Assembly (NCBI GenBank): GCA_001790815.1
Contig: MGDU01000020.1
Span: 14,277-78,276, forward strand
Length of the DNA stretch: 64,000 nt
Source of the DNA: Candidatus Uhrbacteria bacterium RIFCSPHIGHO2_02_FULL_46_47
GTDB taxonomy: Bacteria; Patescibacteriota; Patescibacteriia; GWA2-47-26
Reading direction: 5' to 3'
The position numbers and the translations under genes are program-made. Below are positions 9,664 to 64,000 of the stretch, piece after piece (the stretch's first letter is position 1; every line of letters starts with the position of its first letter). A model generated the notes under the pieces. It was given only the letters and a program-made list of their open reading frames with translations, was not told the DNA's origin and searched no databases.

Positions 9664-9852
9664 CTAGTCGCCACTTCCGCAGTCACCGCCACCGTCCGGC
9701 GAGAAATGGAACTCCATTTCGCCGGAGAGAAAGTCGCTCGCGACATGCCCGTCAAGCAAAGCGGTGAACATGGGGCCGCTACGACTCGGCATCGTCTCTG
9801 CCTCTGCCTTGCCTACCCCTTCTTTTACCATTTTTGGAGCGCCGTCAACCAA
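9664..9852 (-). pseudogene. Remnant copy of the rplL 3' end (L7/L12 C-terminal ~20 codons) fused to GC-rich sequence
   Basis: Translation begins [21 protein letters not shown], matching the C-terminus of rplL at 10661..11071. Nucleotides 9791-9850 are an imperfect copy of 10707-10767. Confidence 0.5.
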
Positions 9853-9857
9853 GTCCC

Positions 9858-10196
9858 TTAAGGGTATACACGCCGCGCATCTTTATAAATACGGCGCAAA
9901 TTCGGAGATTCACTTTTTTTAAGATCGGCAAATTCCTTGGCAGTCAGTCCGATAATATCCATTGGCACTTGCAACGCCGAACCGCGGCGCATGCTATTAA
10001 GAAGCTGAAGCCGTTCCATAAGCGGCATACGCGCGAAATCCGGAGAAAGCACAATAAGATCAATATCACTGTCGTAGCGCATCTGACCCCGCGCACTACT
10101 GCCAAACAATACTACCTCCTCTACTTGTACCGCAGAAGCAATACTCTTAGCGTAATCGCGAGCTATTTTTTTTGCATTAATGCGTTCTCTATCCAT
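9858..10196 (-). CDS. Minimal nucleotidyltransferase (MNT) antitoxin of a HEPN/MNT module
   Basis: GSSARGQMRYDSDIDLIV is the nucleotidyltransferase GS...DxD motif. It overlaps the HEPN gene by 34 nt, a typical TA operon arrangement. Confidence 0.8.
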   Translation of the reverse strand: MDRERINAKKIARDYAKSIASAVQVEEVVLFGSSARGQMRYDSDIDLIVLSPDFARMPLMERLQLLNSMRRGSALQVPMDIIGLTAKEFADLKKSESPNLRRIYKDARRVYP

Positions 10197-10573
10197 ATAA
10201 ACAGTTCCTTAGTTTTATTAAGAATATCCTCAGCATTCTTACGGTTATAGGTGAATGAAAATTTTGGCGCAAATGGCAAATCTGGGTACCGTGGGATCAG
10301 ATAATGTGGCTGTAATTCGTCAATAAACTGTACAAATTTTTCTGGAATTTCAAGTTTAGTCGCAGTACGCAGAGCAGTAAGATCATGAATCTTTTTGACT
10401 TCTAAATCCTGCTCCACCAGGTGTGCCTTAAGAATTTTTTCAATCGATTGATGGCAATGGAATACCACTACCTGATACGCGCTCCCCCGCTTTGCTCCAT
10501 ATTGCATCTGCACTTCAGCCGCATCCAAATCAGCTCGCGCAAATTCAACCCACTTTTTGGTAATATCCTTCAT
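10163..10573 (-). CDS. HEPN-domain toxin of a HEPN/MNT module
   Basis: All-alpha protein with the YLIPRYPD (Rx4-6H-type RYP) motif characteristic of HEPN partners of MNT. Confidence 0.75.
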   Translation of the reverse strand: MKDITKKWVEFARADLDAAEVQMQYGAKRGSAYQVVVFHCHQSIEKILKAHLVEQDLEVKKIHDLTALRTATKLEIPEKFVQFIDELQPHYLIPRYPDLPFAPKFSFTYNRKNAEDILNKTKELFIWIENALMQKK

Positions 10574-10660
10574 ATTCGCAGTCTATAAGTATACCACCAC
10601 AAATTTCTATGTCAAATTCAAAAACCCTCCAATCGGAGGGCTTTTTATGAGTTGTGCTGT

Positions 10661-11071
10661 TTACTTCAGGGTCGCCTTCGCTCCCGCCTCTTCCAATTTT
10701 TTCTTCATCGTCTCTGCTTCGGCTTTGCCAACCCCTTCTTTTACCATTTTTGGAGCGCCGTCAACCATGTCTTTGGCATCTTTCAAGCCAAGCTGGGTAA
10801 TCTCGCGTAGCACTTTAATCACGCCGATTTTATTTGAGCCAGATTCAGTAAGCTCCACATTAAACGTGGTTTGCTCTTCAACGGGCGCAGTGGCCGCGGA
10901 GGGAGCGCCAGCGACCGGAGCCCCGACGAATGTCTGGGCGGCTGAAACACCGAACTTGCCTTCCAATACTTTTACAAGCTCCGCAAGATCGGAAACTGTG
11001 AGTTTCTCAATCTGCTCTACAAGGCCCTTGAATTTCTCCGGGACTTCAACATTTTTTTGTTCATCTGCCAT
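10661..11071 (-). CDS. rplL: 50S ribosomal protein L7/L12
   Basis: [10 protein letters not shown]... with the [16 protein letters not shown] dimerisation region and a conserved C-terminal domain ending ...[10 protein letters not shown]. Confidence 0.95.
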
Positions 11072-11169
11072 ATTGATTATGATACGAATCTACAAATGAT
11101 TGGCGAATCTTCGAATATGCGAATTCGTATATTGGTAGATTCGTCATTAATTCGCTGATTCGTATCGTA

Positions 11170-11946: not shown

Positions 11947-12194
11947 TGCCTCGGCAGGTCTTAGTCTCTCGAGCTTGTCGAGAGGCGCCTACTGTCTGTG
12001 GCGATTTAATTGTATTTATACACTACAATACTCCTTTATTTGTGTCAAGAGGCCGTGAAAATCTAAACACCTCCCTTGCGGGAGGCGTCCATTCAGGTCC
12101 GATGACCTGGATTCCAGATACCCCTCATCACTATTACTGTATCACAGACCACATTATATGTCAAGTAAATATGTGGACAACTCAAAACCCGAGC

Positions 12195-12275
12195 ATGACA
12201 GGTAAGGGAATCGAACCCTTCTGGATACCTTGATGAGGGGTATCTGGTCCCAGACCACCTGCCATTGCGCGGGTT
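12195..12275 (-). ncRNA. tRNA-like structure (good acceptor stem and T-arm, aberrant D and anticodon arms); possible tRNA pseudogene or att-site remnant
   Basis: The minus strand reads GGCAGGU...AAGGGUUCGAUUCCCUU ACCUGUC A, giving a 7-bp acceptor and a canonical T-loop. The anticodon arm has a 6-bp stem and a 9-nt loop. It overlaps a 17-bp inverted repeat (12113-12129 / 12229-12245). Confidence 0.3.
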
Positions 12276-12585: not shown

Positions 12586-12640
12586 AAAAAATTAAAGACC
12601 GTCCGGATGGTCGTGGGCTTTTGGCCTACACCCGGACGGT
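12586..12640 (-). terminator. Rho-independent terminator (stem ACCGTCCGG/CCGGACGGT followed by a T-run on the minus strand)
   Basis: Perfect 9-bp GC-rich stem followed, on the minus strand, by TTTAATTTTTT. Confidence 0.6.
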
Positions 12641-12805
12641 GAACTCCTCACTAACGATCTGTGCCACAGATGGGTTGAGCTACGGGGCTGTCCCGTGCCA
12701 TTGCCGGATCTGTGTCAAGACCCATCTTCTGAGCTTGCGCTCTTTACATGCGATTTTCACGCATGCGGCCTGAGAGGTAGGCCTGGTGCCGGCGTCGTCG
12801 TCGGG

Positions 12806-12943
12806 CTACTTGCCGCCGTCGAGGTAGTCGAAAAACTCGGTGGCGAGCGCCTTCGGCGGACCCGTGGCCCCCATGATGAACGCGGTCATGTTGTCCTTTC
12901 TGCCCGTGTGGGCTGCTTCGAGGCGACCACCGTGGCCACCCAT
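12806..12943 (-). CDS. Small GC-rich ORF (45 aa, MGGHGGRLEAAHTGRKDNMTAFIMGATGPPKALATEFFDYLDGGK) with its own promoter and terminator
   Basis: Promoter on the minus strand: TTGACA (12982-12977), 17-nt spacer, TAGAGT (12959-12954), then GAAGGTG 5 nt before the ATG. Rho-independent terminator hairpin at 12640-12599 plus a T-run. It is below the 60-aa cutoff of the supplied ORF track. Confidence 0.45.
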   Translation of the reverse strand: MGGHGGRLEAAHTGRKDNMTAFIMGATGPPKALATEFFDYLDGGK

Positions 12944-13229
12944 TTGCACCTTCACTCTACTCCTTTTTCACCTCTTTGTCAAGCCCAAAAAAAGCCGCCA
13001 GCTGAAGACCGCCGCACCAGAACAAGTTCGGTGCAGGACAGGCCGGCGACTACTTCTTACCTCTCTAGGCTGGCGCGCGGTGGCGGCTTGCAGCAAAAAT
13101 GTTGCGCAGGCCGAACAGGCACGGTGCCGAACGAAGTGAGGCGAGTGAGGCCGAGCACAAAGAGCGGGGTGCACGCTGGGCACCCCGACTCTGGTTTTTG
13201 CGCAAGTTGCCGACGCGCGACAGCCGCCC

Positions 13230-13814
13230 CTATCCCCCCAAACTAAACCGTACAAATCTGCGGACTTGGATATTTTCGCCAAGTTTGGAAATTTTACTTT
13301 TGACTACTTCTTCAATAGTGAGGTCTTCATCTTTGATAAATGACTGGCGCATGAGGCAAACATCCGAATACCATTTGTCCAGTTTGCCTTGCACAATTTT
13401 CTCCACAATATTTGCTGGCTTACCTGTCGTTTCTTCACCGTAGATTGATTTTTCTTTTTCAACCACTTCTTGCGGCACATCTTCCGGCTTTACATACAAA
13501 GGATTGGTGGCCGCAATTTGAAGCGCCAGATCATGGGCCAACTCTTCAAATTCCGGATTGCGCGCCACAAAATCAGTTTCACAAAGAAGCTCAACAAGTA
13601 CGCCAACTTTTCCGCCGCCGTGCACATAAGCGTGCACAACCCCTTCGTTGGTTGCGCGCTCGGCTTTTTTGGCGGCCTTAAGCACACCGCTTTTGCGCAA
13701 ATTCGTAGTGGCTTTTTCAATATCGCCTTGAGTTTCCTCCAGCGCTTTTTTCGCGTCAAGCACACCAGCGCCGGTTTGCTCGCGAAGTTGCATGACAAGT
13801 TTTGGATCGATCAT
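13230..13814 (-). CDS. tsf: Elongation factor Ts
   Basis: MIDPKLVMQLREQTGAGVLDAKKALEE... is the UBA-like N-terminus. It lies downstream of rpsB, as is conserved. Confidence 0.92.
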   Translation of the reverse strand: MIDPKLVMQLREQTGAGVLDAKKALEETQGDIEKATTNLRKSGVLKAAKKAERATNEGVVHAYVHGGGKVGVLVELLCETDFVARNPEFEELAHDLALQIAATNPLYVKPEDVPQEVVEKEKSIYGEETTGKPANIVEKIVQGKLDKWYSDVCLMRQSFIKDEDLTIEEVVKSKISKLGENIQVRRFVRFSLGG

Positions 13815-13856: not shown

Positions 13857-14606
13857 TTAAGCAACCGATACCACTTGATTTACCTGATTTACTTGCGCAC
13901 TTGATTCACTCGTCTTCCCCTCTTCCTTCCCCTCCTGATACGCCTGCGCAATACATTTTACCACAAGTTCAATTGATTTTACAGCATCGTCATTGCCCGG
14001 AATTGGATATTGTACGCGCTCCGGGTTTGCATTGGTATCGCAAAGCGCGATTATCGGAATTTTTTTTTGATTGGCTTCGGCAAGCGCGGTTTCCTCATGC
14101 TTGATATCCACGATAAATAACGCATCCGGCAGTTTGGTCAAGGTGGAAATACCGTGCACAAGCTGGCTCATCCGTTCAATATCTTTTGAAAAATCAAGTT
14201 GTTCTTTTTTGGTATATTTTCCAAGCTCGCCGCGCTCCTGCTTGCCCTTAAGATCAAGATATTTTCTGATGAGCTTGTAAAGTTCGGCCCAATTAGTAAT
14301 TGTTCCGCCCAGCCAGCGATTTTCAACATAGGGCGCTCCGACTTCAGTTGCGTATTTTTTAATAAGCGGCGCGGCCTGCTTTTTGGTGCCCACAAACAAG
14401 AGCACCTTCCCCTCGCGACCCAGCGCCCTGACAAACTCGCAGGCGCGCGCAAGCTCCTCGCGCGTTTTTTCCAAATTAATAAGATGCACCCCGCCGCGCG
14501 CGCCAAAAATAAAAGGCGCCATTTTAGGGTGCCAACGTGATGTCTTATGGCCAAAGTGAACTCCGGCCTTAAGCAAATCCAATAATTCTGGGGTAGTGTT
14601 TGACAT
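13857..14606 (-). CDS. rpsB: 30S ribosomal protein S2
   Basis: ...LLKAGVHFGHKTSRWHPKMAPFIFGARGGVHLINLEKT... is the S2 signature. Confidence 0.95.
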   Translation of the reverse strand: MSNTTPELLDLLKAGVHFGHKTSRWHPKMAPFIFGARGGVHLINLEKTREELARACEFVRALGREGKVLLFVGTKKQAAPLIKKYATEVGAPYVENRWLGGTITNWAELYKLIRKYLDLKGKQERGELGKYTKKEQLDFSKDIERMSQLVHGISTLTKLPDALFIVDIKHEETALAEANQKKIPIIALCDTNANPERVQYPIPGNDDAVKSIELVVKCIAQAYQEGKEEGKTSESSAQVNQVNQVVSVA

Positions 14607-14788
14607 AGTTTGGTCCTTAATTCTTCCGCATGGCCCATCTTTGATTTCCGCTAAAGCGGAAAGCAGGACACGAAAGCCAGACGTGTATTTATTAATTGTT
14701 CCTTAGTCTACCAAACCACCCCAGGCTTGTCAAGCTTTTCAGTTCACAGGGCAGGGGCACGGGCTGCATCTACAAATCCTGGCTCGGT

Positions 14789-14826
14789 GTGTAAATTTTG
14801 AGTCTAAATTTGACTAAAACTTACAC
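14789..14826. repeat. Partial (terminal 37 nt) copy of the 147-bp foldback repeat unit
   Basis: Identical to 15976-16012 (TGTAAATTTTGAGTCTAAATTTGACTAAAACTTACAC). Confidence 0.85.
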
Positions 14827-14902
14827 TGGGAAGTTCTTTGCCAAAATGAAAAAGACCGGCGTCCCGTAGAGAGCCGGCGAGGAAGGAGCGTGGTTGCTGT
14901 GG

Positions 14903-15406
14903 TCAGCGTTGCTGGCGGCCTGCCCGTCGAAGCATGGCGAGAACGTCACGCCGTGCGGTGGCGCCAAGATAATGCTCAGCGTAGAGGTGTTCAATCGCCC
15001 TCTCTGCCTCCTGCATCGTGAGGAGGCTCACTTCAAAGGCGGTGATCAAGACCTTGCCGGTCCGAATCCATGGAAGCCCGAGCTGCTTCGCTGCCGCGAG
15101 TGCCTTGGCATCGTCGATGATCAGAACCGCATCCTCTTCGCGGCCGGCAAGCACAAGGCAAGCTGCTTCGCCCATGTCCAGATCGTAGGTCTGCTCGATC
15201 CCATTGCGCGCCCCAGAGTCTACGGTCATCACCTGGACACAGGTCAGCGAGGCGATCTCAAAGCCGGGACGGGTTTCTCCAGCCCGCGCCACTTCGTTAC
15301 GCACATCTTCCGGAACGATGATAGTTTCAAACAGAACCGGAAGGAGGTCGAGAAGGCCAACCTTGGAAAGCGCGATGATGGGACCGGAATCGACGATGGC
15401 TCTCAT
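14903..15406 (-). CDS. PIN-domain protein (COG2405/DUF3368-type), putative toxin
   Basis: The N-terminal IVDSGPIIALSKVGLLDLL pattern is typical of COG2405 PIN proteins. It overlaps the upstream UPF0175 gene by 4 nt. The locus is GC-rich. Confidence 0.65.
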   Translation of the reverse strand: MRAIVDSGPIIALSKVGLLDLLPVLFETIIVPEDVRNEVARAGETRPGFEIASLTCVQVMTVDSGARNGIEQTYDLDMGEAACLVLAGREEDAVLIIDDAKALAAAKQLGLPWIRTGKVLITAFEVSLLTMQEAERAIEHLYAEHYLGATARRDVLAMLRRAGRQQR

Positions 15407-15777
15407 GCAACTCTGGATCTGCGCTTGGCATGCGCCTTCATTGCACGCACTATACGCCGATCAGACACCGCTGCCGCCTCCGAATCATCCGCGTAGTACA
15501 AGCCCTCGGCTTTGAGGAGTTCCAGAAACTCCGCAAGTCGCATGCCCAGCGTCTTGGCCGCGACCCCAGCGGAGCAGGAACCTCTCTTGAAGAGGGCGAG
15601 TACAAGCTGACGACGACCCTCGCGAGCTGCCTCCGCCTTGAGCTTCGCGCTCACATGCGTGGGCAACTCGAAATCCACATGTACGCGTGTGGCCACAGTA
15701 GAACCTCCTGTTGTGTGTTGCATAGAGTGAACGGCAGCGTGGGCTGCCAGAAATTGAGAACCGACCTTTATCTTCAC
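15403..15777 (-). CDS. UPF0175 (COG2886) family antitoxin
   Basis: LVLALFKRGSCSAGVAAKTLGMRLAEFLELLKAEGL matches the UPF0175 HTH-like core. It is paired with a COG2405 PIN protein. Confidence 0.6.
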   Translation of the reverse strand: MKIKVGSQFLAAHAAVHSMQHTTGGSTVATRVHVDFELPTHVSAKLKAEAAREGRRQLVLALFKRGSCSAGVAAKTLGMRLAEFLELLKAEGLYYADDSEAAAVSDRRIVRAMKAHAKRRSRVA

Positions 15778-15865
15778 AATACACCTTGGTGCGGAACTCC
15801 GTCAATGCCTCGCGTCTCCGTCGTCTCCCTCTTCGTCTCCACCTGAGCATCGTGTTCCCGCCGAT

Positions 15866-16012
15866 TGTAAGTTTTAGTCAAAAATGTATGCATTTTTTAC
15901 AAAAAAATAGAATCGCTCATTGGCGAATATTCGCTAGAATAAGCAATCTTTGACAAGTTTGATATTCTATTTTTTTGTAAATTTTGAGTCTAAATTTGAC
16001 TAAAACTTACAC
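15866..16012. repeat. 147-bp quasi-palindromic foldback repeat unit (copy 1)
   Basis: Near-perfect reverse complement of 16639-16787. Termini are GTAAGTTTTAGTC...GACTAAAACTTAC, with the internal palindrome GCGAATATTCGC. Confidence 0.9.
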
Positions 16013-16022
16013 CTTTCGCTAT

Positions 16023-16613
16023 TCAGCATCGCAGCGCTTCCGTGTAGCGCGCATTCAAGAGGAGCGCGTCAATTTGCGAATCAATCAGTGGAATGAAACG
16101 GCGGTCAATGCGTACGAATTTACGGCAAGGAACCTCGAGAAAGTAAAGCTCGCCCGGCATCTCATCAGGAACCCTGAATCCGGAAAGTCCGCGTTCTGAT
16201 GTGAAGGGATTTCGGTAATCACGAAAGAGAACGTATTGGTTCTGCTCAATCCAGGCGTCCAGACTGCCGAACGGTTCATATGTAGCGGGCTCATGAAAGA
16301 AGAGAAGACTCAAATAGGTGTCGCTGTCTTTCATGGGTGATGGCGCGAGTACAATGAGAGAAATGCGTGTCTGATCTTGTGGGCGCGCGATTAGCCAGCC
16401 GGATGGTACGTCAAAGGCAATTGGACCTAGTTCGATCGACATTGCATCGATGGGGGTGACAGTCGGAGTCGGTCTATGACGGTGGCTTCCGAGTGCCCAC
16501 GCAGTGGGAAGCCCAATGAGGCTGACAAGCGCCAAAAAGGCTGCAACCACCCAGGGTCGCCCGCAAGTGTGTAAGCTGCTACTTGGCACCATATATTTCC
16601 AATTTACTCCCAT
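16023..16613 (-). CDS. Hypothetical secreted protein (signal peptide), GC-rich cassette
   Basis: N-terminal ...VVAAFLALVSLIGLPTAWA. Flanked on both sides by the 147-bp repeat units. Confidence 0.55.
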   Translation of the reverse strand: MGVNWKYMVPSSSLHTCGRPWVVAAFLALVSLIGLPTAWALGSHRHRPTPTVTPIDAMSIELGPIAFDVPSGWLIARPQDQTRISLIVLAPSPMKDSDTYLSLLFFHEPATYEPFGSLDAWIEQNQYVLFRDYRNPFTSERGLSGFRVPDEMPGELYFLEVPCRKFVRIDRRFIPLIDSQIDALLLNARYTEALRC

Positions 16614-16638
16614 GTCGCACGTTGAGTCAAGAGTCTGG

Positions 16639-16787
16639 TCTGTAAGTTTTAGTCAAATTTAGACTCAAAATTTACAAAAAAATAGAATATCAAACTTGTC
16701 AAAGATTGCTTATTCTAGCGAATATTCGCCAATGAGCGATTCTATTTTTTTGTAAAAAATGCATACATTTTCGACTCAAACTTACAG
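16639..16787. repeat. 147-bp foldback repeat unit (copy 2, inverted relative to copy 1)
   Basis: Reverse complement of 15866-16012 with only a few mismatches. Confidence 0.9.
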
Positions 16788-16880
16788 TATAGGGTAAAAG
16801 ATAAAATAAATAAAACTGAATAATTGTTTGGCTGTGGGCTTGCCAAATTTCAGCCCTTTTGCTATACTATTCCCACGAAT

Positions 16881-17165
16881 ATGAAGACCGACCTTCACCC
16901 ACAATATTACCCTCAAGCCAAGATTACATGCGTGTGCGGGGCAATCTATACCACAGGATCAACAGTTCCGGAGATCCGTGTGGAAATTTGCAGTGCCTGC
17001 CATCCATTTTTTACCGGAAAACAAAAGCTTGTTGACACTGCCCGTCGTGTTGAAAAATTCACGCAGCGCGTCGCAAAAAAAGCTACGACCGGAGCACGCA
17101 CAAGCAAAACCGTAAAACGCGCGACCAAGCAAGCCGCGAGAAAATTGAAATTGGAAGAAAAATAA
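16881..17165 (+). CDS. rpmE: 50S ribosomal protein L31
   Basis: [49 protein letters not shown]... contains the CxxC...CxxC zinc ribbon of L31. The track ORF 16824.. is trimmed to the internal Met. Confidence 0.88.
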
Positions 17166-17244
17166 GGGCCCGCTGATTTTGAATACGCGGATATCGCTGA
17201 TATAATAGGTATCAGCGCAATCAGCGCCAAAAGATCAGCGGACT

Positions 17245-18156
17245 TTGTATTTTATGAACCCGGAACTAAAACCATATCAATCCCGCCTTAAAGAACTGGA
17301 AGAGCTTTTCACTTCTCCGGAAGTGCTTTCTGATCCTCAAAAACTTGCGCAGTTAAGCCGTGAATATTCCCAGATCAAAGCTACATTTGCGCGTACTGCA
17401 AAAGCGGGAGATTTAGGCGAGCGTAATGTCATTATGGAAATACGCGCTGGCACGGGTGGGGACGAAGCCGCGCTTTTTGCCGCGCAGCTGTATCGCATGT
17501 ACGCGCGCTTTGCCGAACGGCAAAAATGGGCGGTGCGTGTGGCCTCTTCCAGCCGCACGGATATCGGCGGATTTAAAGAAATCATTTTTTCAATTGAAGG
17601 TAAAGGAGCGTATCGCGCGCTGAAATATGAATCTGGCGTGCACCGCGTCCAGCGCGTTCCGGAAACTGAAAAATCCGGCCGCGTCCATACTTCAACCGCG
17701 ACTGTGGCAGTGCTTCCTGAAGCAGAAGAAGTTGATATTAAAATTGATCCAAAAGATTTGCGCATTGATACCATGACTGCTGGAGGACATGGCGGGCAAT
17801 CAGTCAATACAACCTACTCCGCAGTGCGCATTACGCACATTGCCACCAACCTGGTGGTCATTTGTCAGGATGAACGGTCGCAGCAGCAAAATAAATCCAA
17901 AGCCATGCAAGTTTTGCGCGCGCGGCTTTTTGCTTTGGAGCAGGAAAAAAAGCGGGCAGAAAGAGAGGCGCAGCGGCGCGGACAAATCGGCACTGGCGAG
18001 CGCAGCGAAAAAATCCGCACCTACAATTTTCCCCAAGACCGTGTTACGGATCATCGCGTTAAAGAAAATTTTCACAATTTGCCAAAAATTATGGATGGCG
18101 AAATCAATCCTATCATTGAAACTTTACAAAAAGAAGGAATTGACACACAAAAGTAA
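17245..18156 (+). CDS. prfA: Peptide chain release factor 1
   Basis: GGQ motif ([21 protein letters not shown]) and PxT-region-like sequence. Short CPR-type RF1. Confidence 0.9.
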
Positions 18157-18227
18157 GAGGAGTATTCTCAGGCCAGTCACCGCGGCTCCACTTTGGGGAC
18201 GCGCGGACAAAGATGAGGAGGAGTCCC

Positions 18228-18641
18228 ATGAAGCGAGGGCGATCGAAGACAGAAGCGCTCCGAATCCTGCGGGAACGATTCAAGCGCGGCCAGAAGAACC
18301 GGCACATCCCGAAGGGCGCGAAGTTCCTCTACGGTGTGCGCGGCGGCCATAGCCTGAGGATGCCCTTAGTAGTCTTTCTCATGGCGGATGCGCACGGCAA
18401 GCTCTTCCCTGGAGCCTACGGAGACGTGCCCTTCACGCCCCGTGGCTACAAGCCACCCCCGCGCGAGCGCACGACGCGCGCAACGCCCGCCGCGATACCG
18501 CCCCCGGTCGTGGAAGACCACTCGGGTGATCCCACCACCGCCGACGGTCACGGCTCCGACATGCGCACCGACCGCGACGACACGCGTCAGTCGCCTCTGC
18601 GCCAAACCGGCCCCACCGCCACCGATCCTGCCATCGACTGA
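18228..18641 (+). CDS. Hypothetical basic protein in a GC-rich island
   Basis: Strong SD GAGGAGG 6 nt before ATG 18228. Arg/Pro-rich with no recognisable domain. Confidence 0.4.
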   Translation: MKRGRSKTEALRILRERFKRGQKNRHIPKGAKFLYGVRGGHSLRMPLVVFLMADAHGKLFPGAYGDVPFTPRGYKPPPRERTTRATPAAIPPPVVEDHSGDPTTADGHGSDMRTDRDDTRQSPLRQTGPTATDPAID

Positions 18642-18714
18642 TCTTCCAGTCCACCTGCACAACCAACGAGGAGACCCCGCCCTGCGATCGCACACGCGTG
18701 CTTCGCAGGGCATT

Positions 18715-19806
18715 CTATATTTTGATAATTGCCACACGATCCAATCTTGCCAGATCTTTTACTATTTTTACGCTGGCGCGCGGGAAAAATGTCCGCGCTA
18801 AAATTTTTATGTCGTCGGATTGATGAGGGTCAATTTCGCAAATTACAGACACTCGTAACTCCCCCTCACCCCCTCTTACCCTAAGAGGGGGAATGCCTTT
18901 TGACCCATCTCCTCCCCTTAAGATAAGGGGAGGTTGGGAGGGGTTATGTATTTTTTTCAATTGTTCAAACAATTTTCTATAATAATCCAACCCGGTTTTC
19001 CCTCCATCCAACGCGCCCCTAGGCTCAAAATTGCGCACTTCTGGCATAGCGCCCCGCCATTCACGGGTGGGCAGATACGGAAGATTGGCAGTGATTAGGA
19101 GATGAGTAGGTAGTATGTAGTATGTAGGAGGTAGAAATGGTTTGAGTAGGTTGCCATGGAAAAATTTAATTTTCTCTTCCACACCGTGCTGCTTGGCATT
19201 TTGTTTGGCCACGCGCAATGCCGCACGCGAGATATCAGTGGCAAAAAATGTAATCGCGTCTCCTCGTGGCCAGGCCACGGGTCGCGCCTGCGGCAGTGAC
19301 CTGGCCACTTCCACCGCGATTGCCACCACAATCGCCCCACTGCCAGTTCCAATATCAACAACCGTGTAACGTGTAGCGCGTAACTTGTAACGTGTCATTT
19401 CCTTGAGTGCCTCATCTACCAATATTTCCGTTTCCGGCCGCGGGATAAGCACATTTCTGTTCACTAAAAAATCCAATCCGTAAAATTCTTTGTGCCCGAT
19501 AATATACGCCACCGGCTCATGATTTATCCGTCGCGTGATAAATTGTTTAAAAATTTTGAGCTGCGCAGAGGTCAGTTTTTGCTCCGGATAGCCGTACAGC
19601 CATGCACGCCCCCTCACCTCATTCCTCTCCCTCAGGGAGAGGATGTCCAGTAGGACAGGTGAGGGTGAAACGGCATGCGTCAAAAGCACCTCCGCATCAA
19701 GCGCGGGTGAATCCGTCACTGAGTGATGGGCACCCTTATCACTCAGTGACGACCCGGTTTTTTTCAATTGCGCTATCCCCCACTTTAGCGCTTCGGCAAT
19801 TATCAT
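18715..19806 (-). CDS. prmC: Release-factor glutamine N5-methyltransferase PrmC/HemK
   Basis: VDIGTGSGAIVVAIA (SAM motif I) and the NLPYLP (NPPY) motif. Two in-frame repeat insertions (19611-19674 and 19093-19135). The 3' end reads through family-C elements at 18841-18950, so the native stop is probably near 18960. Confidence 0.8.
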   Translation of the reverse strand: MIIAEALKWGIAQLKKTGSSLSDKGAHHSVTDSPALDAEVLLTHAVSPSPVLLDILSLRERNEVRGRAWLYGYPEQKLTSAQLKIFKQFITRRINHEPVAYIIGHKEFYGLDFLVNRNVLIPRPETEILVDEALKEMTRYKLRATRYTVVDIGTGSGAIVVAIAVEVARSLPQARPVAWPRGDAITFFATDISRAALRVAKQNAKQHGVEEKIKFFHGNLLKPFLPPTYYILPTHLLITANLPYLPTREWRGAMPEVRNFEPRGALDGGKTGLDYYRKLFEQLKKIHNPSQPPLILRGGDGSKGIPPLRVRGGEGELRVSVICEIDPHQSDDIKILARTFFPRASVKIVKDLARLDRVAIIKI

Positions 19807-26882: not shown

Positions 26883-27051
26883 AGTACCCTAGCTTGACAC
26901 AAAAGTGACTATATTGTAAAGTAATTAACTGGCCCTGGGACGGGGCTTTTTTAGGACAACACGATGCCAATATACGAATTTCATGCCAATCTACAAATAC
27001 GAATTCGCAATTCGTAGATTAGCATAAGATTTGTAGATTTGCATCACAATT

Positions 27052-27237
27052 ATGCCGAAATTGCTGAATTACTTCAAAGAATCAAAGCAGGAAATGAAAA
27101 AAGTGGTCTGGCCTTCCAAAAAGGAAACCACCAATTATACCTTGGCCGTTATCTTTATCAGCTTGGGTCTGGCCGCGTTTTTCGCCATTGTGGATTACTT
27201 CCTCAATCTTGGTTTGGAAAAACTTATTAATAAGTAG
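27052..27237 (+). CDS. secE: Preprotein translocase subunit SecE
   Basis: 61 aa with a single C-terminal TM. It lies directly upstream of nusG, the conserved secE-nusG-rplKA order. Confidence 0.8.
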   Translation: MPKLLNYFKESKQEMKKVVWPSKKETTNYTLAVIFISLGLAAFFAIVDYFLNLGLEKLINK

Positions 27238-27978: not shown

Positions 27979-28401
27979 ATGGCAAAGAAAGTAAAGACAG
28001 TCATTAAACTCCAAATTCCCGCAGGCAAGGCAAACCCCGCGCCTCCGGTTGGTCCAGCACTTGGTCAACATGGTCTTAACATTTCCGAGTTTTGCCAAAA
28101 ATTCAACGCCGCGACATCAAAGCTGGGCGATGATATTATTCCGGTTGAAATTACGGTTTTTGAAGACCGCACCTATACTTTCAAAACCAAAACTCCACCG
28201 GCATCTGAACTTTTGAAAAAAGCCGCCGGCATTACAAAAGGTTCTGGCAAGGCGCTTGTTGAAAAAGTCGGCAAAGTAACACGCGCGCAAATTCGCGAGA
28301 TTGCGGAGCGTAAACTTCCGGACTTAAATACTAAAGATGTTGAAGCCGCGATGCGCACCATTGAAGGCACCGCGAAACAGATGGGACTGGAAGTAGTATG
28401 A
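27979..28401 (+). CDS. rplK: 50S ribosomal protein L11
   Basis: [35 protein letters not shown]... is the L11 signature. Confidence 0.95.
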
Positions 28402-28504
28402 TACGAATCACCGAATATCTGACGAATCTGCGAATATACGAATTCGTTGATTCGCATATTTGTTGATTCGCCTAAAATTTGTAGATTCGTATCACATATA
28501 TTAT

Positions 28505-29182
28505 ATGCCAGGAAAAAAATATCAGGAAGCAGTAAAGTTAGTGGATGCCAAAAAATTATATTCGCCGAGCGAGGCGCTTGAGCTTGCCAAAAAAACTTCA
28601 ACTGTAAAATTTGACGCCTCAATTGAGGTGCATTGCCATCTTGGAATTGATCCGGCAAAAAGCGACCAAGCTGTGCGCGCAACACTGACTTTTCCGCATG
28701 GAACCGGGAAAAGTAAGCGCATTGCCGCGTTTGTAGATGCGGCAAACGAAAAAGCAGCAGAAGAAGCCGGCGCGGATATTGTGGGAGGCGATCGGCTTAT
28801 CGATGAGATCGCGTCCTCTGGGAAAATTGATTTTGACGTGGCAATCGCAACACCGCCTATAATGGCGAAACTTGCAAAGGTTGCAAAAGTGCTTGGGCCT
28901 AAGGGACTGATGCCAAACCCAAAATCAGAAACCGTTACTACAGATGTGAAAAAAACTATTGCGGAGCTTAAACGCGGCAAAGTAACTTTCAAAAATGACG
29001 ATACTGGAAATGTGCACCAAGTTCTTGGCAAAGTTTCTTTTGATACCCAAAAACTTCTTGAAAATTTCCAGACACTTCTGGAAGCTTTGCGAAAAGCAAA
29101 ACCATCTTCTTCAAAAGGAATATATCTTCAATCTTGCACAATAAGCGCATCCATGGGCCCGGCGATTAAAGTTTCCATTTAA
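28505..29182 (+). CDS. rplA: 50S ribosomal protein L1
   Basis: MPGKKYQEAVKLVD...GKSKRIAAF... The start was trimmed to the ATG at 28505, in frame with track ORF 28460. Confidence 0.92.
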   Translation: MPGKKYQEAVKLVDAKKLYSPSEALELAKKTSTVKFDASIEVHCHLGIDPAKSDQAVRATLTFPHGTGKSKRIAAFVDAANEKAAEEAGADIVGGDRLIDEIASSGKIDFDVAIATPPIMAKLAKVAKVLGPKGLMPNPKSETVTTDVKKTIAELKRGKVTFKNDDTGNVHQVLGKVSFDTQKLLENFQTLLEALRKAKPSSSKGIYLQSCTISASMGPAIKVSI

Positions 29183-33465: not shown

Positions 33466-34338
33466 ATGCAAGCTTATTTAGATATTGTCCGTCATATTTT
33501 AGAGCATGGAGAAATGAAGGAAAACCGTACTGGCGTGCGTGCGCTCACAGTTGCGGGCGCGATGTTTGAGCATGACATGGCGCAGGGCTTCCCCCTGCTC
33601 ACTACCAAAAAAATGCCGTTTAAAGTCATGGCCACGGAATTGGAATTTTTTATTAAAGGCGTGACAGACAAACAGTGGCTTAAAGATCGCAATTGCCATA
33701 TTTGGGATGAATGGGCTTCTCCTAAAAAAGCTCCGTATGGCCATGATGAGCAGTCAAAAAAACGCATGGCGCAGGAGCGAGATTTAGGGCCAGTATACGG
33801 TTTTCAATGGCGGCATTTTGGCGCGCCTTATCATAGCCATGATACAAACTATGATGGACAAGGCGTAGATCAACTGGCAAATCTTGTACAAAAACTCAAA
33901 ACCAATCCAGACGATCGTCGTATGATTGTCTGCGCTTGGAATCCAGTGGCTTTGCCGGAAATGGGTTTGCCGCCTTGCCATTACGCCTTTCAAGTAACAG
34001 TTATCAATGGCAAACTTAATCTGCTGTGGAATCAGCGTTCAGTAGATACTATGCTTGGTCTGCCCTTTAACATTTCCAGCTACGCGCTTCTTTTACACTT
34101 GCTTGCTAAAGAAGCAGGGCTGAAAGAAGGAAAACTGGTTGGATTTTTAGGCGATGTGCATATTTATGAAAATCATCTGGACGGCGCGAGAGAACAACTT
34201 ATCCGGGATCCGATGACATATGCGCTTCCCACAATCCAAACTGATCCATGGACTGGTATTTTCAACTGGGAAGCCACCCACACCAAACTCCTTGGCTACG
34301 AAAGTTATCCTAAGATTGAATTCCAAATTGCGGTATAG
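33466..34338 (+). CDS. thyA: Thymidylate synthase (ThyA)
   Basis: ...GPVYGFQWRHFGA...RRMIVCAWNPVALPEMGLPPCHYAFQ... contains the catalytic Cys motif. Confidence 0.95.
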   Translation: MQAYLDIVRHILEHGEMKENRTGVRALTVAGAMFEHDMAQGFPLLTTKKMPFKVMATELEFFIKGVTDKQWLKDRNCHIWDEWASPKKAPYGHDEQSKKRMAQERDLGPVYGFQWRHFGAPYHSHDTNYDGQGVDQLANLVQKLKTNPDDRRMIVCAWNPVALPEMGLPPCHYAFQVTVINGKLNLLWNQRSVDTMLGLPFNISSYALLLHLLAKEAGLKEGKLVGFLGDVHIYENHLDGAREQLIRDPMTYALPTIQTDPWTGIFNWEATHTKLLGYESYPKIEFQIAV

Positions 34339-34357
34339 TACAAGCAACGCACACTCA

Positions 34358-34403
34358 ATTAAAATAAAAAGAACTCCCGCACCAGGATGAACCCAGTGCG
34401 GGA
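34358..34403 (-). terminator. Rho-independent terminator (stem CTCCCGCAC/GTGCGGGAG) for the GC-rich gene
   Basis: 9-bp perfect stem with a T-run on the minus strand (A-run 34355-34370 on plus). It also sits after the thyA stop. Confidence 0.65.
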
Positions 34404-34428
34404 GAGTGCAACATGACCGAAACCGATG

Positions 34429-34890
34429 TTACTCGCTGACCGCGACGAGCCAGTGCCAGCCGCCGCTGAAGGCGCTGCCGACCCAGTCGAAGCCCGAGCG
34501 GCCGTAGCCGTGCACGCACGGGAAGGCGGCGTTGCCGTCCGGATCCGACCACGAGGAGTCGGCCACACCGATCTGACCTTTGCCGTCGGGCTTCCGGTAG
34601 CTGGCCTTGAACGCCTGACGCCACTGGCCCTCGGGGATCTTGCCGTGCGGCGCGAGCTTGCGCTTGACCTCCTCAAAGTCTCGGCAGTAACCGATCGCAA
34701 CGAGCTTGAAGCGGCAGGTCTGCGCGCCCTTGACCACACGGCCGTTGTGCTTCCACTTGCCGGTGTAGCCGTCGGTGTGCACCATCGCAAGCGGCTGGTT
34801 GTCGGACGCGTCGCCGTTGAGGGTGAGCTTGAAGACTTCGCCATCAGCCGGGTAGGCGAAGAACGGCTTCACCTCCGCCTCGCCGCGCAC
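34429..34890 (-). CDS. Hypothetical protein in a GC-rich island (possibly the 3' part of a frameshifted gene that continues at 34869..35057)
   Basis: Diverse, Trp/Lys-containing composition, unlike the overlapping Ala/Arg-rich alternative frames. The upstream 62-aa ORF 34869..35057 is in a different frame but contiguous. Confidence 0.45.
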   Translation of the reverse strand: MRGEAEVKPFFAYPADGEVFKLTLNGDASDNQPLAMVHTDGYTGKWKHNGRVVKGAQTCRFKLVAIGYCRDFEEVKRKLAPHGKIPEGQWRQAFKASYRKPDGKGQIGVADSSWSDPDGNAAFPCVHGYGRSGFDWVGSAFSGGWHWLVAVSE

Positions 34891-35545
34891 GACCGGCAGA
34901 GCCCCGCCGCCGTGTTGCCTTCCGAAAGTTTCTCGACGTCGGCGTTGGTCCAGCCGTTGCGACCAAACGCCAACGCCAGCTCGTGTGCCTGTCCTGTTGA
35001 CATCTGGAACGTGTCACCACTCATGACCTGTTCTCCCTTCTCATGCAACTGGTTCATCGCGAACTGTGTTGCAGTTCATGGCCAGAACCCATTTGTCCCA
35101 GCCTTATTTTGAAGGCAATAAAGCCGCCAAAACAAGGCCAGGAATCCTATTCAAAGAACACATTTTATACTACCATATTTTGGACAAAATGTCAAGAGTG
35201 GTGTAAAATGATGAGTGCAGTATGCAAAAACCACTCATCAATTACGCTTTTATTGGTGATTTTTATTGTCTTGTAAAATATTTTCTTAAGCAAAACAAGT
35301 TTGAACGCCTTATTGTACCAAATCGTTATAAATACTCGGTACTCCTGCACCGAGTCTTCTCCGGTTTGCCACAAATCACATTCATGAACGATTTAAAAAA
35401 TATTCTGGAATATAAAAAGAGCAACACCGGGTCTCCCCGGTGAAGCTCATATCGGGGGGTCTATGCAGAGACGGAACCCTGCACATGCCCTACCCGTAGT
35501 AATTCTAAACATAGTATACCATACCCATAAAAACTGTCAAGAGCT

Positions 35546-63184: not shown

Positions 63185-63221
63185 TTTATTTTTCTGTTTT
63201 TTTACGATTTGGGCATCTGAA

Positions 63222-63283
63222 ATTGAAAAAATGCCCGGGGCGAGTTGCCTGCCTGCGGTAGGCAGGCGCGCTCGCCACCGGGC
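63222..63283 (-). terminator. Rho-independent terminator (nested hairpin CCCGGGGCGAG..GCCTGCC-TGCGGTA-GGCAGGC..CTCGCCACCGGG) followed by a T-run on the minus strand
   Basis: Lies 3' of gene 63298..63756. Confidence 0.55.
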
Positions 63284-63297
63284 TCGGGACTACTTGC

Positions 63298-63756
63298 TCA
63301 CCTCGCGCCGACGAGCTCGTCTGCGGTACGGGCATCAAGCTCGGCTTTGAGCAGATCCCACATTCGCGCGACAAGCGTGGTCGCGGCGAGCATTTCCAAC
63401 CACTTTCGTCCGCTCATGAGCGAATGATGGTGCCACCCACGCGTTCCACCCTCATGCACCATGTGGAGAGTGGTGTGGTCGTTTTCTCTTTCGAAAAAGT
63501 GTCCAGACCCGGTGGCTACGATCTGTCCCAAGGTCCTGGACCTGAGCCGCTTTATCTTGGCTATGACGACATCCCACACCATCTCACGCAGATCCTGCAC
63601 GCTGGCCGTGACGTTGCGCTCTCTCGGCAGCGGATCCGTGCCATCCGAGACGATCCGGATGTACTTGAACTCATCCAGCACGAGGCGGATCTTCTGTCGT
63701 GCGATGATATCTCGGGCGATCTTGTCCACCAGATCCAAGTCACGATGCTTCCCCAT
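63298..63756 (-). CDS. Hypothetical protein in a GC-rich island
   Basis: 152 aa with a balanced composition. The SD AGGAGG lies 7 nt upstream of the ATG. Confidence 0.5.
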   Translation of the reverse strand: MGKHRDLDLVDKIARDIIARQKIRLVLDEFKYIRIVSDGTDPLPRERNVTASVQDLREMVWDVVIAKIKRLRSRTLGQIVATGSGHFFERENDHTTLHMVHEGGTRGWHHHSLMSGRKWLEMLAATTLVARMWDLLKAELDARTADELVGAR

Positions 63757-64000
63757 GGTTGTTCCTCCTGTTGTGTTTTCCGCCGCAAGTACGTGCCCTG
63801 GGAAAAAGGCGCGTGGGGAGGCGCATGCCTCCTGGCGGAGTTATGGCCTTTGGGCCATGACTTATTAAGAATGCGCCAAAATTGCGATTTTGTCAAGATT
63901 GGGGTATTATTGATAGACAATACAGATGGTACAAACGGATTCCCTCCCTTAAGGTAAGGGAGGGTTAGGGTGGGTTATGAACCATGCATATCTCGTAACC

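What the first reader, a model, noticed from the sequence alone, without database searches (positions are those of the whole stretch)
14789..16787. Array of 147-bp foldback repeats delimiting GC-rich cassettes (a UPF0175/PIN TA pair and a secreted protein), an integron-like cassette cluster without an integrase
Three copies of a quasi-palindromic 147-bp unit (partial at 14789-14826; full at 15866-16012; full and inverted at 16639-16787) bracket two cassettes that are clearly GC-richer than the surrounding rpsB/rpmE sequence. Cassette 1 holds a COG2886/COG2405 toxin-antitoxin pair. Cassette 2 holds a signal-peptide protein. Each unit has short terminal inverted repeats (GTAAGTTTTAGTC) and an internal GCGAATATTCGC palindrome. 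The layout of repeat, then cassette, then repeat, then cassette, with a TA module among the cargo, resembles the VCR arrays of Vibrio superintegrons or attC clusters without an integrase (CALINs). The repeat lacks the canonical attC R-box sequences, however, so this may be a different recombination system or a composite MITE structure.
Basis: partly seen in the sequence, partly recalled or inferred. Interest (0 to 1): 0.85.

Follow-up and report, generated by a model that had tools for sequence, protein, structure and literature searches.

The report
Foldback repeats bracketing imported genes
A candidate-phyla (Uhrbacteria) bacterium carries a 2.1-kb piece of foreign DNA (a toxin-antitoxin pair and an orphan secreted protein) between two ribosomal-protein promoters, and copies of an AT-rich hairpin repeat punctuate it; the repeat looks like a small non-autonomous mobile element, not an integron site.

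Summary
A 146-nt foldback unit lies at 15866-16011. An inverted copy with 2 mismatches lies at 16641-16786. A solo 36/37-nt right end lies at 14790-14826. These copies bracket two GC-richer modules: a UPF0175/DUF3368 (PIN-like) toxin-antitoxin pair and an orphan signal-peptide protein.

The host is Candidatus Uhrbacteria RIFCSPLOWO2_01_FULL_47_24. Relatives with 75-81% identical rpsB have an empty site, where the rpsB and rpmE promoters share one palindromic -35. So the roughly 2.1-kb block (14743-16836) is a lineage-specific insertion. A third relative (73%) has unrelated DNA inserted at the same palindrome.

The integron/CALIN reading fails. The units have no attC R boxes and lie on opposite strands. 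About 84 kb surveyed holds no integrase. All sampled contigs of this population (24 read for the PIN gene) show the same fixed arrangement.

The 19-21-nt termini (TGTAAGTTTTAGTCAAAAATG) recur as inverted termini of two elements with unrelated interiors in two unrelated metagenome contigs. This implies a trans-acting enzyme that recognises the ends. No target duplications, parent element or dispersed copies were found.

Best reading: MITE-like elements bracketing cargo as a composite cassette (0.4). Rivals: modules like Acinetobacter dif modules that move by site-specific recombination, or later local invasion of an already inserted island. Interest is moderate to low.

The parts
14705..14733 (-). 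rpsB promoter (TTGACA-17-TAGACT, extended -10), conserved with relatives
   Evidence: 10/12 match. Alignment with L098, L094 and L096.
14724..14742 (.). Copy 1 of the ancestral shared -35 palindrome (GGCTTGTCAAGCTTTTCAG), on the rpsB side of the insert
   Evidence: Relatives with an empty site have a single copy. The pairwise match to copy 2 is statistically weak (p about 0.08).
14743..14789 (.). 47-nt GC-rich stub of inserted DNA lying outside the outermost repeat
   Evidence: It is not homologous to the relatives' intergenic DNA. It shows that the repeats do not exactly delimit the foreign DNA.
14790..14826 (+). Solo right-end module R. It is a 36-nt imperfect palindrome (15-nt arm, 7-nt spacer, 14-nt Y arm) plus a shared C
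   Evidence: 37/37 identical to 15976-16012. It folds as a hairpin with z = -3.7 and -5.5 on the two strands.
14827..15865 (.). Cassette 1, foreign DNA with GC 0.59
14903..15406 (-). DUF3368 / COG2405 PIN-like toxin gene (167 aa)
   Evidence: Precomputed PF11848. PADLOC PDC-S70 at E = 1.6e-25. The direct Pfam scan gave only a weak PIN hit. GC3 is 0.66.
15403..15696 (-). UPF0175 antitoxin gene (97 aa from a GTG preceded by AGGAGG; an alternative ATG lies at 15723). Its stop overlaps the toxin start (ATGA)
   Evidence: Pfam PF03683. PADLOC PDC-S70. The same gene pair occurs in L100.
15776..15805 (-). Promoter-like site upstream of the toxin-antitoxin operon (TTGACG-18-TATTGT)
   Evidence: 9/12 match, consensus match only.
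15866..16011 (+). Full foldback unit A. It consists of the L module (15866-15901), a 74-nt centre with GCGAATATTCGC (15902-15975), and the R module (15976-16011). GC is 0.25
   Evidence: An internal promoter-like site TAGACT-17-TAGAAT lies on the - strand at 15992-15964.
16012..16640 (.). Cassette 2, GC 0.53
16023..16592 (-). Orphan gene for a 189-aa protein with an N-terminal signal-peptide-like segment (the 196-aa ORF extends to 16613)
   Evidence: No Pfam, NCBIfam or PADLOC hit. Only one real homologue (53-55% identity) was found in 5.8 and 1.8 billion proteins. That homologue sits on a GC-rich contig, L099.
16601..16630 (-). Promoter-like site for the cassette-2 gene (TTGACT-18-TAAATT)
16641..16786 (-). 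Full foldback unit B, the reverse complement of unit A with 2 mismatches
   Evidence: (I1, 99%). An internal promoter-like site lies on the + strand at 16660-16688.
16787..16836 (.). AT-rich stub of inserted DNA between unit B and the rpmE promoter
   Evidence: Not alignable to relatives.
16837..16868 (+). Copy 2 of the ancestral -35 palindrome (GGCTTGCCAAATTTCAG, 16837-16853) and the rpmE promoter (TTGCCA-17-TATACT, 16840-16868)

Best explanation
The locus is a lineage-specific island of about 2.1 kb (14743-16836) of horizontally acquired DNA. It was inserted at the palindromic -35 element that the divergent rpsB-tsf and rpmE-prfA promoters share in related Uhrbacteria.

The island holds two self-contained modules, each with a promoter-like site of its own. 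One is a UPF0175/DUF3368 toxin-antitoxin pair. The other is an orphan secreted or membrane-anchored protein.

The modules are separated and bounded by copies of an AT-rich, non-coding foldback element with a conserved terminus of about 20 nt (5'-TGTAAGTTTTAGTCAAAAATG). I read these repeats as non-autonomous, MITE-like elements whose ends are recognised by an enzyme encoded elsewhere. Pairs of them bracket passenger genes, so the cargo moved as composite 'mobile insertion cassettes'. The solo 36-mer is an internally deleted copy, which can be derived from a full unit by deletion between the two direct TGTAA(G/A)TTTT arms.

In this population the structure is now fixed and probably immobile.

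Shown: the repeats, their fold, the foreign composition of the cargo, the empty site in relatives, and the recurrence of the termini in two unrelated genomes.

Inferred: trans-mobilisation, capture of the cargo by element pairs, and the deletion origin of the solo copy.
For: - Repeat anatomy and significance.
- Termini with a TG...CA signature and 14-17 nt perfect inverted repeats.
- The same termini on other elements. A 103-nt foldback in a 57%-GC contig (L085) has 21/23 inverted arms and shares 15 and 21 nt with the unit's ends. A 175-nt element in L088 has 16-nt perfect arms. Both have unrelated interiors. None of the 72 other 17-mer hits in the genome and viral collections has a partner arm at 3 or fewer mismatches. 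Three have a 4-mismatch candidate 408-605 nt away, which looks like chance.
- Foreign cargo. GC3 is 0.54-0.66 against 0.36-0.52 for host genes. The only homologue of the cassette-2 protein lies on a GC-rich contig.
- The insertion is lineage-specific. L098 (rpsB 81% identical) has a 203-bp gap between rpmE and rpsB. L094 has a single shared -35. L096 has a different GC-rich insert at the same palindrome.
- Each module has its own promoter-like site.
- MITE pairs that mobilise passenger genes are documented elsewhere: Tn3-derived miniature elements (TIMEs) and mobile insertion cassettes (PMC4133298 and PMC5444012).
Against: - None of the five copies has a target-site duplication: unit A, unit B, the solo R, L085, L088. 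Most DDE-type MITEs make one.
- The Pfam scans of the larger window ORFs and the precomputed tables for the flanks show no transposase or recombinase, and about 84 kb holds no further copy.
- No autonomous parent with these termini was found in plasmids, phages, viral contigs or the literature.
- All contigs of this population, 24 read for the PIN gene, share one arrangement.
- A 47-nt GC-rich stub lies outside the outermost repeat, so the repeats do not exactly delimit the foreign DNA.
- The cargo modules were not found in any other context.
Confidence: 0.4

Rival explanations
1. The repeats are double-stranded recombination sites, as in Acinetobacter dif modules. Each 36-nt module (R: 15-nt arm, 7-nt spacer, 14-nt Y arm; L: Y arm, 7-nt spacer, degenerate arm) is a core site for a tyrosine or serine recombinase encoded elsewhere. 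The array is then five such sites bounding four modules: cassette 1, a 74-nt mini-module, cassette 2, and the inverted mini-module. Modules move by recombination between sites, as pdif modules do with XerC/D.
For: - R has the geometry of a lox, FRT or dif-type core site.
- The conserved Y arm alternates in orientation along all five sites (R, L, R, R', L'), and the Y arms always face the GC-rich cargo. That is the formal rule for pdif module arrays, which often carry toxin-antitoxin genes and single ORFs of 0.5-2.3 kb and have no linked recombinase (PMC6160057).
- The absence of target duplications is expected for this mechanism.
- Cassette 1 plus L plus the centre is flanked by perfect 37-nt direct repeats. 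That is an excisable circle of 1186 bp (D3).
Against: - The sites show no similarity to dif or pdif (no ...ATAA-6-TTATG... core).
- No recombinase was seen in the roughly 84 kb surveyed.
- L085 and L088 conserve only the Y arm plus 5-7 inner nt, not the two-arm site.
- No module was found in a second context, and the population shows no variation.
- GC skew shows no terminus-like switch at the locus.
Confidence: 0.2
2. The repeats played no part in bringing in the cargo. The 2.1-kb foreign island was inserted first, and the duplicated copy of the -35 palindrome marks that event. Later a foldback element entered and spread locally into each of the island's three intergenic gaps, or was duplicated by local rearrangement. 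The copies may now serve as insulators or promoters between the cargo and the ribosomal-protein promoters.
For: - Foreign GC-rich DNA continues for 47 nt beyond the solo repeat.
- The two copies of the flanking palindrome differ at about 4 of 19 positions, while the units differ at 2 of 146. This suggests the units are younger than the island.
- L096 has an insert at the same palindrome with no such repeats.
- Each copy sits in an intergenic gap.
- The units carry an internal promoter-like TAGACT-17-TAGAAT that points at the toxin-antitoxin operon from unit A and at rpmE from unit B.
Against: - Three copies lie within 2 kb and none in the other 82 kb or so. That needs extreme local hopping.
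- The two cassettes differ in composition (GC3 0.65 against 0.54), and the only homologue of the cassette-2 gene has other neighbours. One contiguous donor fragment is therefore unlikely.
- The promoter matches are weak (9/12) and lie in AT-rich DNA.
Confidence: 0.25
3. The locus is an integron-type cassette array (attC sites, a CALIN), recombined as folded single strands by an IntI-type integrase encoded elsewhere.
For: - The units are imperfect palindromes that fold strongly as single-stranded DNA.
- The layout is repeat, cassette, repeat, with toxin-antitoxin cargo.
Against: - No R'' or R' box exists in any unit, and no RYYYAAC-N35-135-GTTRRRY pair exists in 14000-17500.
- The two full units are on opposite strands, whereas CALINs require attC sites on one strand (PMC4889954).
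- The 17-bp perfect terminal stem and the 146-nt length do not fit attC architecture.
- No integrase was seen in the roughly 84 kb surveyed.
- There is no cassette variation among the sampled contigs, 24 of them read for the PIN gene.
Confidence: 0.03
4. Each unit is an invertible promoter switch (an inverton). The terminal inverted repeats are invertase sites, and flipping the interior turns transcription toward the neighbouring genes on or off.
For: - A short segment is bounded by 14-17 nt inverted repeats and holds a promoter-like site that points outward.
- In the viral contig L101, an 18-nt inverted repeat with the same 11-nt core lies 16 nt (24 nt from the 11-nt core) from a resolvase-family gene.
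Against: - Every assembly has unit A in one orientation and unit B in the other.
- The arms are 48 nt long and the whole unit is a foldback, unlike typical invertons.
- The number of L101-type hits is at chance level for the pattern used, and its recombinase is a Bacteroidales plasmid type.
- No invertase is nearby.
Confidence: 0.05

Closest known systems
Composite elements flanked by MITEs or terminal inverted repeats, and mobile insertion cassettes (MICs, Tn3-derived TIMEs, integron mobilisation units)
   Same: Short non-coding elements with terminal inverted repeats lie on both sides of passenger genes. No transposase lies inside. The two flanking copies are inverted, as around cassette 2. 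Family members share termini but not interiors.
   Different: There are no target-site duplications. No parent insertion sequence is known. Copy number is very low. The host is a candidate-phyla bacterium. The element is a nested foldback whose ends are themselves 36-nt palindromes.
Acinetobacter pdif (dif) modules (PMC6160057, PMC6449649)
   Same: Small modules of 0.5-2 kb, often toxin-antitoxin pairs or single ORFs, are bounded by sites in alternating inverse orientation. Each site has one well-conserved arm and one variable arm around a short spacer. No recombinase is linked.
   Different: Here the sites are 36 nt (15-7-14) and unrelated in sequence to XerC/D sites. The locus is chromosomal, not on a Rep_3 plasmid. 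No module has been seen in a second context. There is no evidence of a recombinase.
Integron attC arrays, Vibrio VCRs, and CALINs (PMC4889954)
   Same: Imperfect palindromic repeats separate promoterless-looking small cassettes. Toxin-antitoxin cargo is present. No integrase is adjacent.
   Different: R boxes are absent. The units lie on opposite strands. The cassettes carry their own promoter-like sites. The stem architecture differs from attC. The array does not vary within the population.
REPINs (REP doublets forming hairpins, moved by RAYT transposases; from my own knowledge)
   Same: Two short imperfect palindromes in inverted orientation around a spacer form one long hairpin. Solo singlets occur alongside doublets. 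There are no target duplications. The location is intergenic.
   Different: REPINs occur in tens to hundreds of copies alongside a RAYT gene and do not bracket cargo. Here there are 2.3 copies at one locus, and no Y1 transposase was seen.

Membership tests
Integron attC array / CALIN | [quoted passage not shown] | tested here: not met
   The definition comes from PMC4889954. The two full units are reverse complements of each other (I1).
Integron attC array / CALIN | Conserved R'' (RYYYAAC) and R' (GTTRRRY) boxes at the ends of each site | tested here: not met
   The regex scan of both strands found no box in any unit and no spaced pair in 14000-17500.
Integron attC array / CALIN | A match to the IntegronFinder attC covariance model, which captures a bulged hairpin with extrahelical bases | not testable with these tools
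   That model is not in Rfam. Rfam searches found nothing relevant. The single-stranded DNA fold is a long nested hairpin with a 17-bp perfect terminal stem, which is unlike attC.
Integron attC array / CALIN | Cassette content varies between strains | tested here: not met
   All 24 PIN-carrying and 7 ORF196-carrying contigs have the same context. The apparent variants are runs of N or a foldback assembly path.
MITE (miniature inverted-repeat transposable element) | Short, non-coding, with terminal inverted repeats | tested here: met
   The unit is 146 nt with GC 0.25. Its terminal inverted repeats are 14-17 nt perfect, and its 48-nt arms are 81% complementary.
MITE (miniature inverted-repeat transposable element) | Target-site duplication flanking each copy | tested here: not met
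   No direct repeat flanks unit A, unit B, the solo R, the L085 element or the L088 element.
MITE (miniature inverted-repeat transposable element) | Multiple dispersed copies in the genome | tested here: inconclusive
   No other copy lies in the window or in 20 kb of extension. The terminus scans of the genome and metagenome collections returned no other hit for this organism, but they did not return the source locus either. The source is probably masked or absent, so the whole genome was not really tested.
MITE (miniature inverted-repeat transposable element) | Termini shared with other elements or an autonomous parent | tested here: inconclusive
   The termini are shared with two non-autonomous elements in unrelated contigs, L085 and L088. 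No autonomous parent was found.
Xer-dependent dif modules | Flanking sites are XerC/XerD binding sites (11-6-11, dif-like) | tested here: not met
   The R and L modules are 36 nt (15-7-14) and contain no ATAA-N6-TTATG core, by reading the sequence. The definition comes from PMC6160057.
Xer-dependent dif modules | Sites alternate in orientation along the array, and modules are bounded by inverse sites | tested here: met
   The position of the conserved Y arm alternates right, left, right, left, right across the five sites at 14790, 15866, 15976, 16641 and 16751.
Xer-dependent dif modules | The same module is found in different contexts | tested here: not met
   The exact PIN and ORF196 proteins occur in only one context. 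The nearest homologues (34% and 53% identity) lie in ordinary contexts without the repeats.
Type II toxin-antitoxin pair, UPF0175/DUF3368 (COG2886/COG2405) | Two small adjacent co-directional genes with overlapping stop and start codons, matching both families | tested here: met
   PF03683 for the antitoxin. Precomputed PF11848 for the toxin. Both proteins hit PADLOC PDC-S70. There is an ATGA overlap at 15403-15406. The same pair occurs in L100. Toxicity itself was not tested.

The most novel reading that the evidence does not exclude
The five 36-nt two-arm sites (a conserved 14-nt Y arm, a 7-nt spacer and a variable partner arm, strictly alternating in orientation) could define a previously undescribed gene-cassette platform that works by site-specific recombination. 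It would resemble integrons and Acinetobacter pdif modules but use a different site and an unknown recombinase acting in trans. Candidate-phyla bacteria could use it to slot small defence and surface-protein modules into a safe harbour between essential promoters.
Probability: 0.12. Interest if true: 0.75.

Novelty: new variant of a known kind. Interest (0 to 1): 0.38.

Why it matters
Candidate-phyla bacteria have tiny genomes and few recognised mobile elements, so how they gain accessory genes is poorly documented. In this case a candidate defence toxin-antitoxin pair and an orphan secreted protein were slotted between two essential ribosomal-protein promoters, and both promoters survived. 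The cargo is punctuated by a repeat family that is not in Rfam, was not found in phage or plasmid collections or in the literature searched, and occurs in unrelated bacteria.

If the repeats prove to be recombination or transposition sites, they would mark a route of gene gain in these organisms. They would also give a searchable signature, the 21-nt terminus. If they do not, the locus is a small fixed genomic island, and the integron reading can be dropped.

Tried and rejected
1. Strain variants. The apparent deletions and insertions in L002, L007, L010 and L001 are runs of N at the palindromic repeats. L005, which places cassette 2 in inverted order, has the same cassette-1 flank at both ends. 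It is therefore a graph-traversal artefact across the inverted repeat, not a clean inversion.

2. Genome-wide copy number. A 17-mer scan of 185,579 species genomes gave 68 single hits, all in unrelated taxa and none with a partner arm at 3 or fewer mismatches. The source genome was not hit at all, so the locus is probably masked or absent. The negative result is therefore weak.

3. Viral contigs.
   - The 17-mer gave 4 chance hits.
   - Paired 11-mer arms gave L101 and L102/L103.
   - L101 lies next to a resolvase gene. The hit count is about what chance predicts, the recombinase is a Bacteroidales plasmid type, and no relatives were found. I kept it only as a lead.

4. BLAST of the unit and its end against plasmids and phages found nothing meaningful. 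tblastn of the PIN protein against plasmids found no match.

5. A literature string search for the terminus found no relevant paper. No paper on MITEs in candidate-phyla bacteria surfaced.

6. Rfam gave no hit at gathering thresholds or at E up to 0.1 over the window. The only hit was a spurious microRNA match at E = 0.35.

7. The dif/terminus idea. GC skew stays negative across most of the window, with no terminus-like switch at the locus.

8. Homology of the unit's centre to the native CGAAT-rich palindromes of this genome. The alignment is unconvincing.

9. The Y arm resembles the native rpmE promoter of L096 (TGTCAAGTTTTAGTG). The number of such fuzzy hits is at chance level.

10. Target duplication around the whole island. 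Both sides keep a copy of the ancestral -35 palindrome. The pairwise match is weak (p about 0.08) and could reflect selection for promoter function.
Full report
**The observation**

- Unit A spans 15866-16011. It is 146 nt, from 5'-TGTAAGTTTTAGTC to GACTAAAACTTACA-3'.
- Unit B spans 16641-16786. It is the reverse complement of A with two mismatches, both in the end distal to cassette 2.
- A solo copy of the right-hand 36 nt (37 with a shared C) lies at 14790-14826. It is identical to 15976-16012.
- The 14-nt terminus occurs five times in the window against 0.27 expected. The 25-nt centre occurs twice against none expected. No other copy exists in the 64 kb.
- Each unit folds as single-stranded DNA far better than shuffled controls, z = -6 to -9.6.

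Independent NCBI, ENA and JGI assemblies reproduce the arrangement at 99.96-100% identity. It is therefore not an assembly artefact.

**Anatomy of the unit**

The unit is a nested palindrome made of three parts.
- The left 36 nt (L) consist of the perfect 14-nt 'Y' arm TGTAAGTTTTAGTC, a 7-nt spacer, and a degenerate arm.
- The right 36 nt (R) consist of the arm TGTAAATTTTGAGTC, a 7-nt spacer, and the Y arm inverted.
- Between L and R lie 74 nt that include GCGAATATTCGC.

Along the locus the five 36-nt modules (R; L and R of unit A; R' and L' of unit B) alternate in the orientation of the Y arm. The Y arms always face the GC-rich DNA. The solo R can be derived from a full unit by deletion between the two direct TGTAA(G/A)TTTT arms.

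**The cargo**

Cassette 1 (14827-15865, GC 0.59) carries an operon on the minus strand.
- The UPF0175 antitoxin gene is 15403-15696 and matches Pfam PF03683.
- The 167-aa DUF3368/COG2405 PIN-like protein gene is 14903-15406. It has precomputed PF11848 hits. The direct Pfam scan gave only a sub-threshold PIN hit.
- Both proteins match the PADLOC candidate defence system PDC-S70.
- The same gene pair occurs in an unrelated contig, L100.

Cassette 2 (16012-16640, GC 0.53) carries a 189-aa protein with a signal-peptide-like N-terminus, judged by reading the sequence only. It has no family match. Exactly one real homologue (53-55% identity) turned up in searches of 5.8 and 1.8 billion proteins, and it lies on a GC-rich contig among other genes.

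GC3 is 0.66, 0.64 and 0.54 for the three cargo genes against 0.36-0.52 for 25 host genes. The units themselves are 25% GC. Each cassette has its own promoter-like site.

**Context and comparison with relatives**

The host is Candidatus Uhrbacteria bacterium RIFCSPLOWO2_01_FULL_47_24, since the rpsB protein is 100% identical. The insert lies between the divergent rpsB-tsf and rpmE-prfA operons. All contigs that carry the cargo proteins belong to one near-clonal population and tell us nothing about variation. Their apparent variants are runs of N or a foldback assembly path.

More distant Uhrbacteria are informative.
- L098 (rpsB 81% identical) has only 203 bp between rpmE and rpsB. The two promoters share one palindromic -35 (CTTGACAAG).
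- L094 (75%) also has a single shared -35. A different 160-nt foldback sits further downstream.
- L096 (73%) has an unrelated GC-rich insert of about 0.9 kb, carrying an HTH gene, at the same palindrome.

In the window each side of the insert keeps a copy of that palindrome, at 14724-14742 and 16837-16853. The inserted DNA is therefore 14743-16836. That is larger than the repeat array, and it includes a 47-nt GC-rich stub outside the solo repeat. The pairwise similarity of the two copies is weak (p about 0.08). I treat 'target duplication' as an inference. Selection to keep both promoters would give the same picture.

**Is it an integron-like array?**

No, on every test I could run.
- No R'' or R' box exists in any unit, and no spaced pair exists in 14000-17500.
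- The full units lie on opposite strands, whereas CALINs are defined by attC sites on one strand (PMC4889954).
- The 17-bp perfect terminal stem and the 146-nt length do not fit attC.
- No integrase, other recombinase or transposase domain appeared in the Pfam scans of the larger window ORFs, in the precomputed tables for the region around the locus, or in 10 kb beyond each end of the window.
- Cassette content does not vary among the sampled contigs (24 read for the PIN gene, 7 for the cassette-2 gene).
- The attC covariance model itself was not available.

**What the repeat is**

The key positive result comes from a metagenome scan for the terminus. Besides the source locus it returned two elements in unrelated contigs.
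- L085 holds a 103-nt foldback in a 57%-GC contig. Its arms are 21/23 complementary and it shares 15 nt and 21 nt with the unit's two ends. It supplies the stop codon of an XRE-family gene.
- L088 holds a 175-nt element between a carotenoid desaturase-like gene and another gene. Its arms are 16 nt and perfect.

Both have interiors unrelated to the unit. By contrast, none of the 72 chance hits to the 17-mer in the genome and viral collections has a partner arm at 3 or fewer mismatches. A conserved 19-21-nt terminus on otherwise unrelated short elements, in hosts of different GC content, is the signature of ends recognised by a trans-acting enzyme. That means a MITE-like family.

Several facts count against a classical DDE-type MITE.
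- None of the five copies has a target-site duplication.
- No parent element was found in phages, plasmids, viral contigs or the literature.
- No dispersed copies were seen.

The whole genome could not be scanned, and the collection scans did not return the source locus either. That negative result is therefore weak.

**How it most likely works**

I commit, at about 0.4, to the composite reading. The units are non-autonomous elements defined by their termini. Pairs of them bracketed foreign genes and delivered them as mobile insertion cassettes, as described for TIMEs and MICs (PMC4133298 and PMC5444012). They landed in a hot spot where only insertions that keep both promoters survive. The structure is now a fixed relic.

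The main rivals are these.
- Site-specific recombination at the 36-nt two-arm modules (0.2). The alternating orientation of the sites, the toxin-antitoxin cargo, the lack of a linked recombinase and the lack of target duplications all parallel Acinetobacter pdif modules (PMC6160057). However, the sites are unrelated to dif, the two-arm structure is not conserved in L085 or L088, and no module was seen in a second context.
- Later local invasion or duplication of the repeat within an island that was already there (0.25). The GC-rich stub outside the array favours this. So does the fact that the units are much more alike than the two copies of the flanking palindrome.
- An inverton reading (0.05) and the integron reading (0.03) are unlikely.

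**Verdict**

The integron/CALIN interpretation is not supported.

The locus is a small, fixed genomic island in a candidate-phyla bacterium, punctuated by a previously undescribed foldback repeat family. I rate it a new variant of a known kind, with moderate to low interest (0.38). The most novel surviving reading is a cassette platform like dif modules but with a new site. I give it about 0.12 probability.

Noticed in passing
window 9790-10771: A HEPN/MNT (nucleotidyltransferase) toxin-antitoxin pair (10163-10573 and 9858-10196, minus strand) sits just downstream of rplL. It is flanked by a 66-nt direct repeat (9790-9855 and 10706-10771, 92% identical), which is a duplicate of the rplL 3' end. 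This is the signature of integration into the end of a gene. The module is present in all sampled contigs of the population.
   Followed up: partly
window 11078-11169, 26965-27056, 28398-28505: A family of palindromes of about 90-105 nt built from TACGAATC/GATTCGTA motifs lies in intergenic gaps of ribosomal-protein and nusG operons. Related Uhrbacteria (L098, L096) have direct TACGAAT repeats in the rpmE leader. These may be a lineage-specific regulatory or REP-like element. They are not convincingly related to the centre of the 146-nt unit.
   Followed up: partly
window 12601-13280, 18141-18760, 34321-35080, 63201-63840: Four further GC-rich islands (mean GC 0.59-0.63, peaks to 0.73) lie in a 46%-GC genome. 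The long ORFs scanned there have no significant Pfam match, and there is no Rfam match. The two checked (12601-13280 and 18141-18760) have no flanking repeats. They may be more foreign DNA or unknown structured RNAs.
   Followed up: partly
window 12114-12247: A perfect 17-nt inverted repeat (CCAGATACCCCTCATCA / TGATGAGGGGTATCTGG) encloses 100 nt. This is another small foldback element, located between rplJ and the acylphosphatase gene.
   Followed up: no
L094 2279-2438; L096 3046-3975: The gap between the rpmE and rpsB promoters is a recurrent insertion site in Uhrbacteria. L094 has an unrelated 160-nt foldback (24-nt arms, 88% complementary) in the rpsB leader. L096 has a GC-rich insert of about 0.9 kb with an HTH_3 gene, flanked by two copies of CTTGACAAG.
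   Followed up: partly
L101 714-1599: In a 16-kb viral contig, a 244-aa resolvase-family serine recombinase gene lies 16 nt from an 18-nt perfect inverted repeat (TTTGTGCAAGTTTTAGTC ... GACTAAAACTTGCACAAA, 99 nt apart). The repeat shares the 11-nt core of the unit's terminus, and a third partial copy lies inside. It may be that recombinase's site. The link to the window's repeat is at chance level.
   Followed up: partly
L085 1738-1840: The 103-nt family member in a 57%-GC contig lies between an XRE-family HTH gene and a 110-aa ORF on the same strand. Its terminal repeat supplies the TAA stop codon of the HTH gene.
   Followed up: partly
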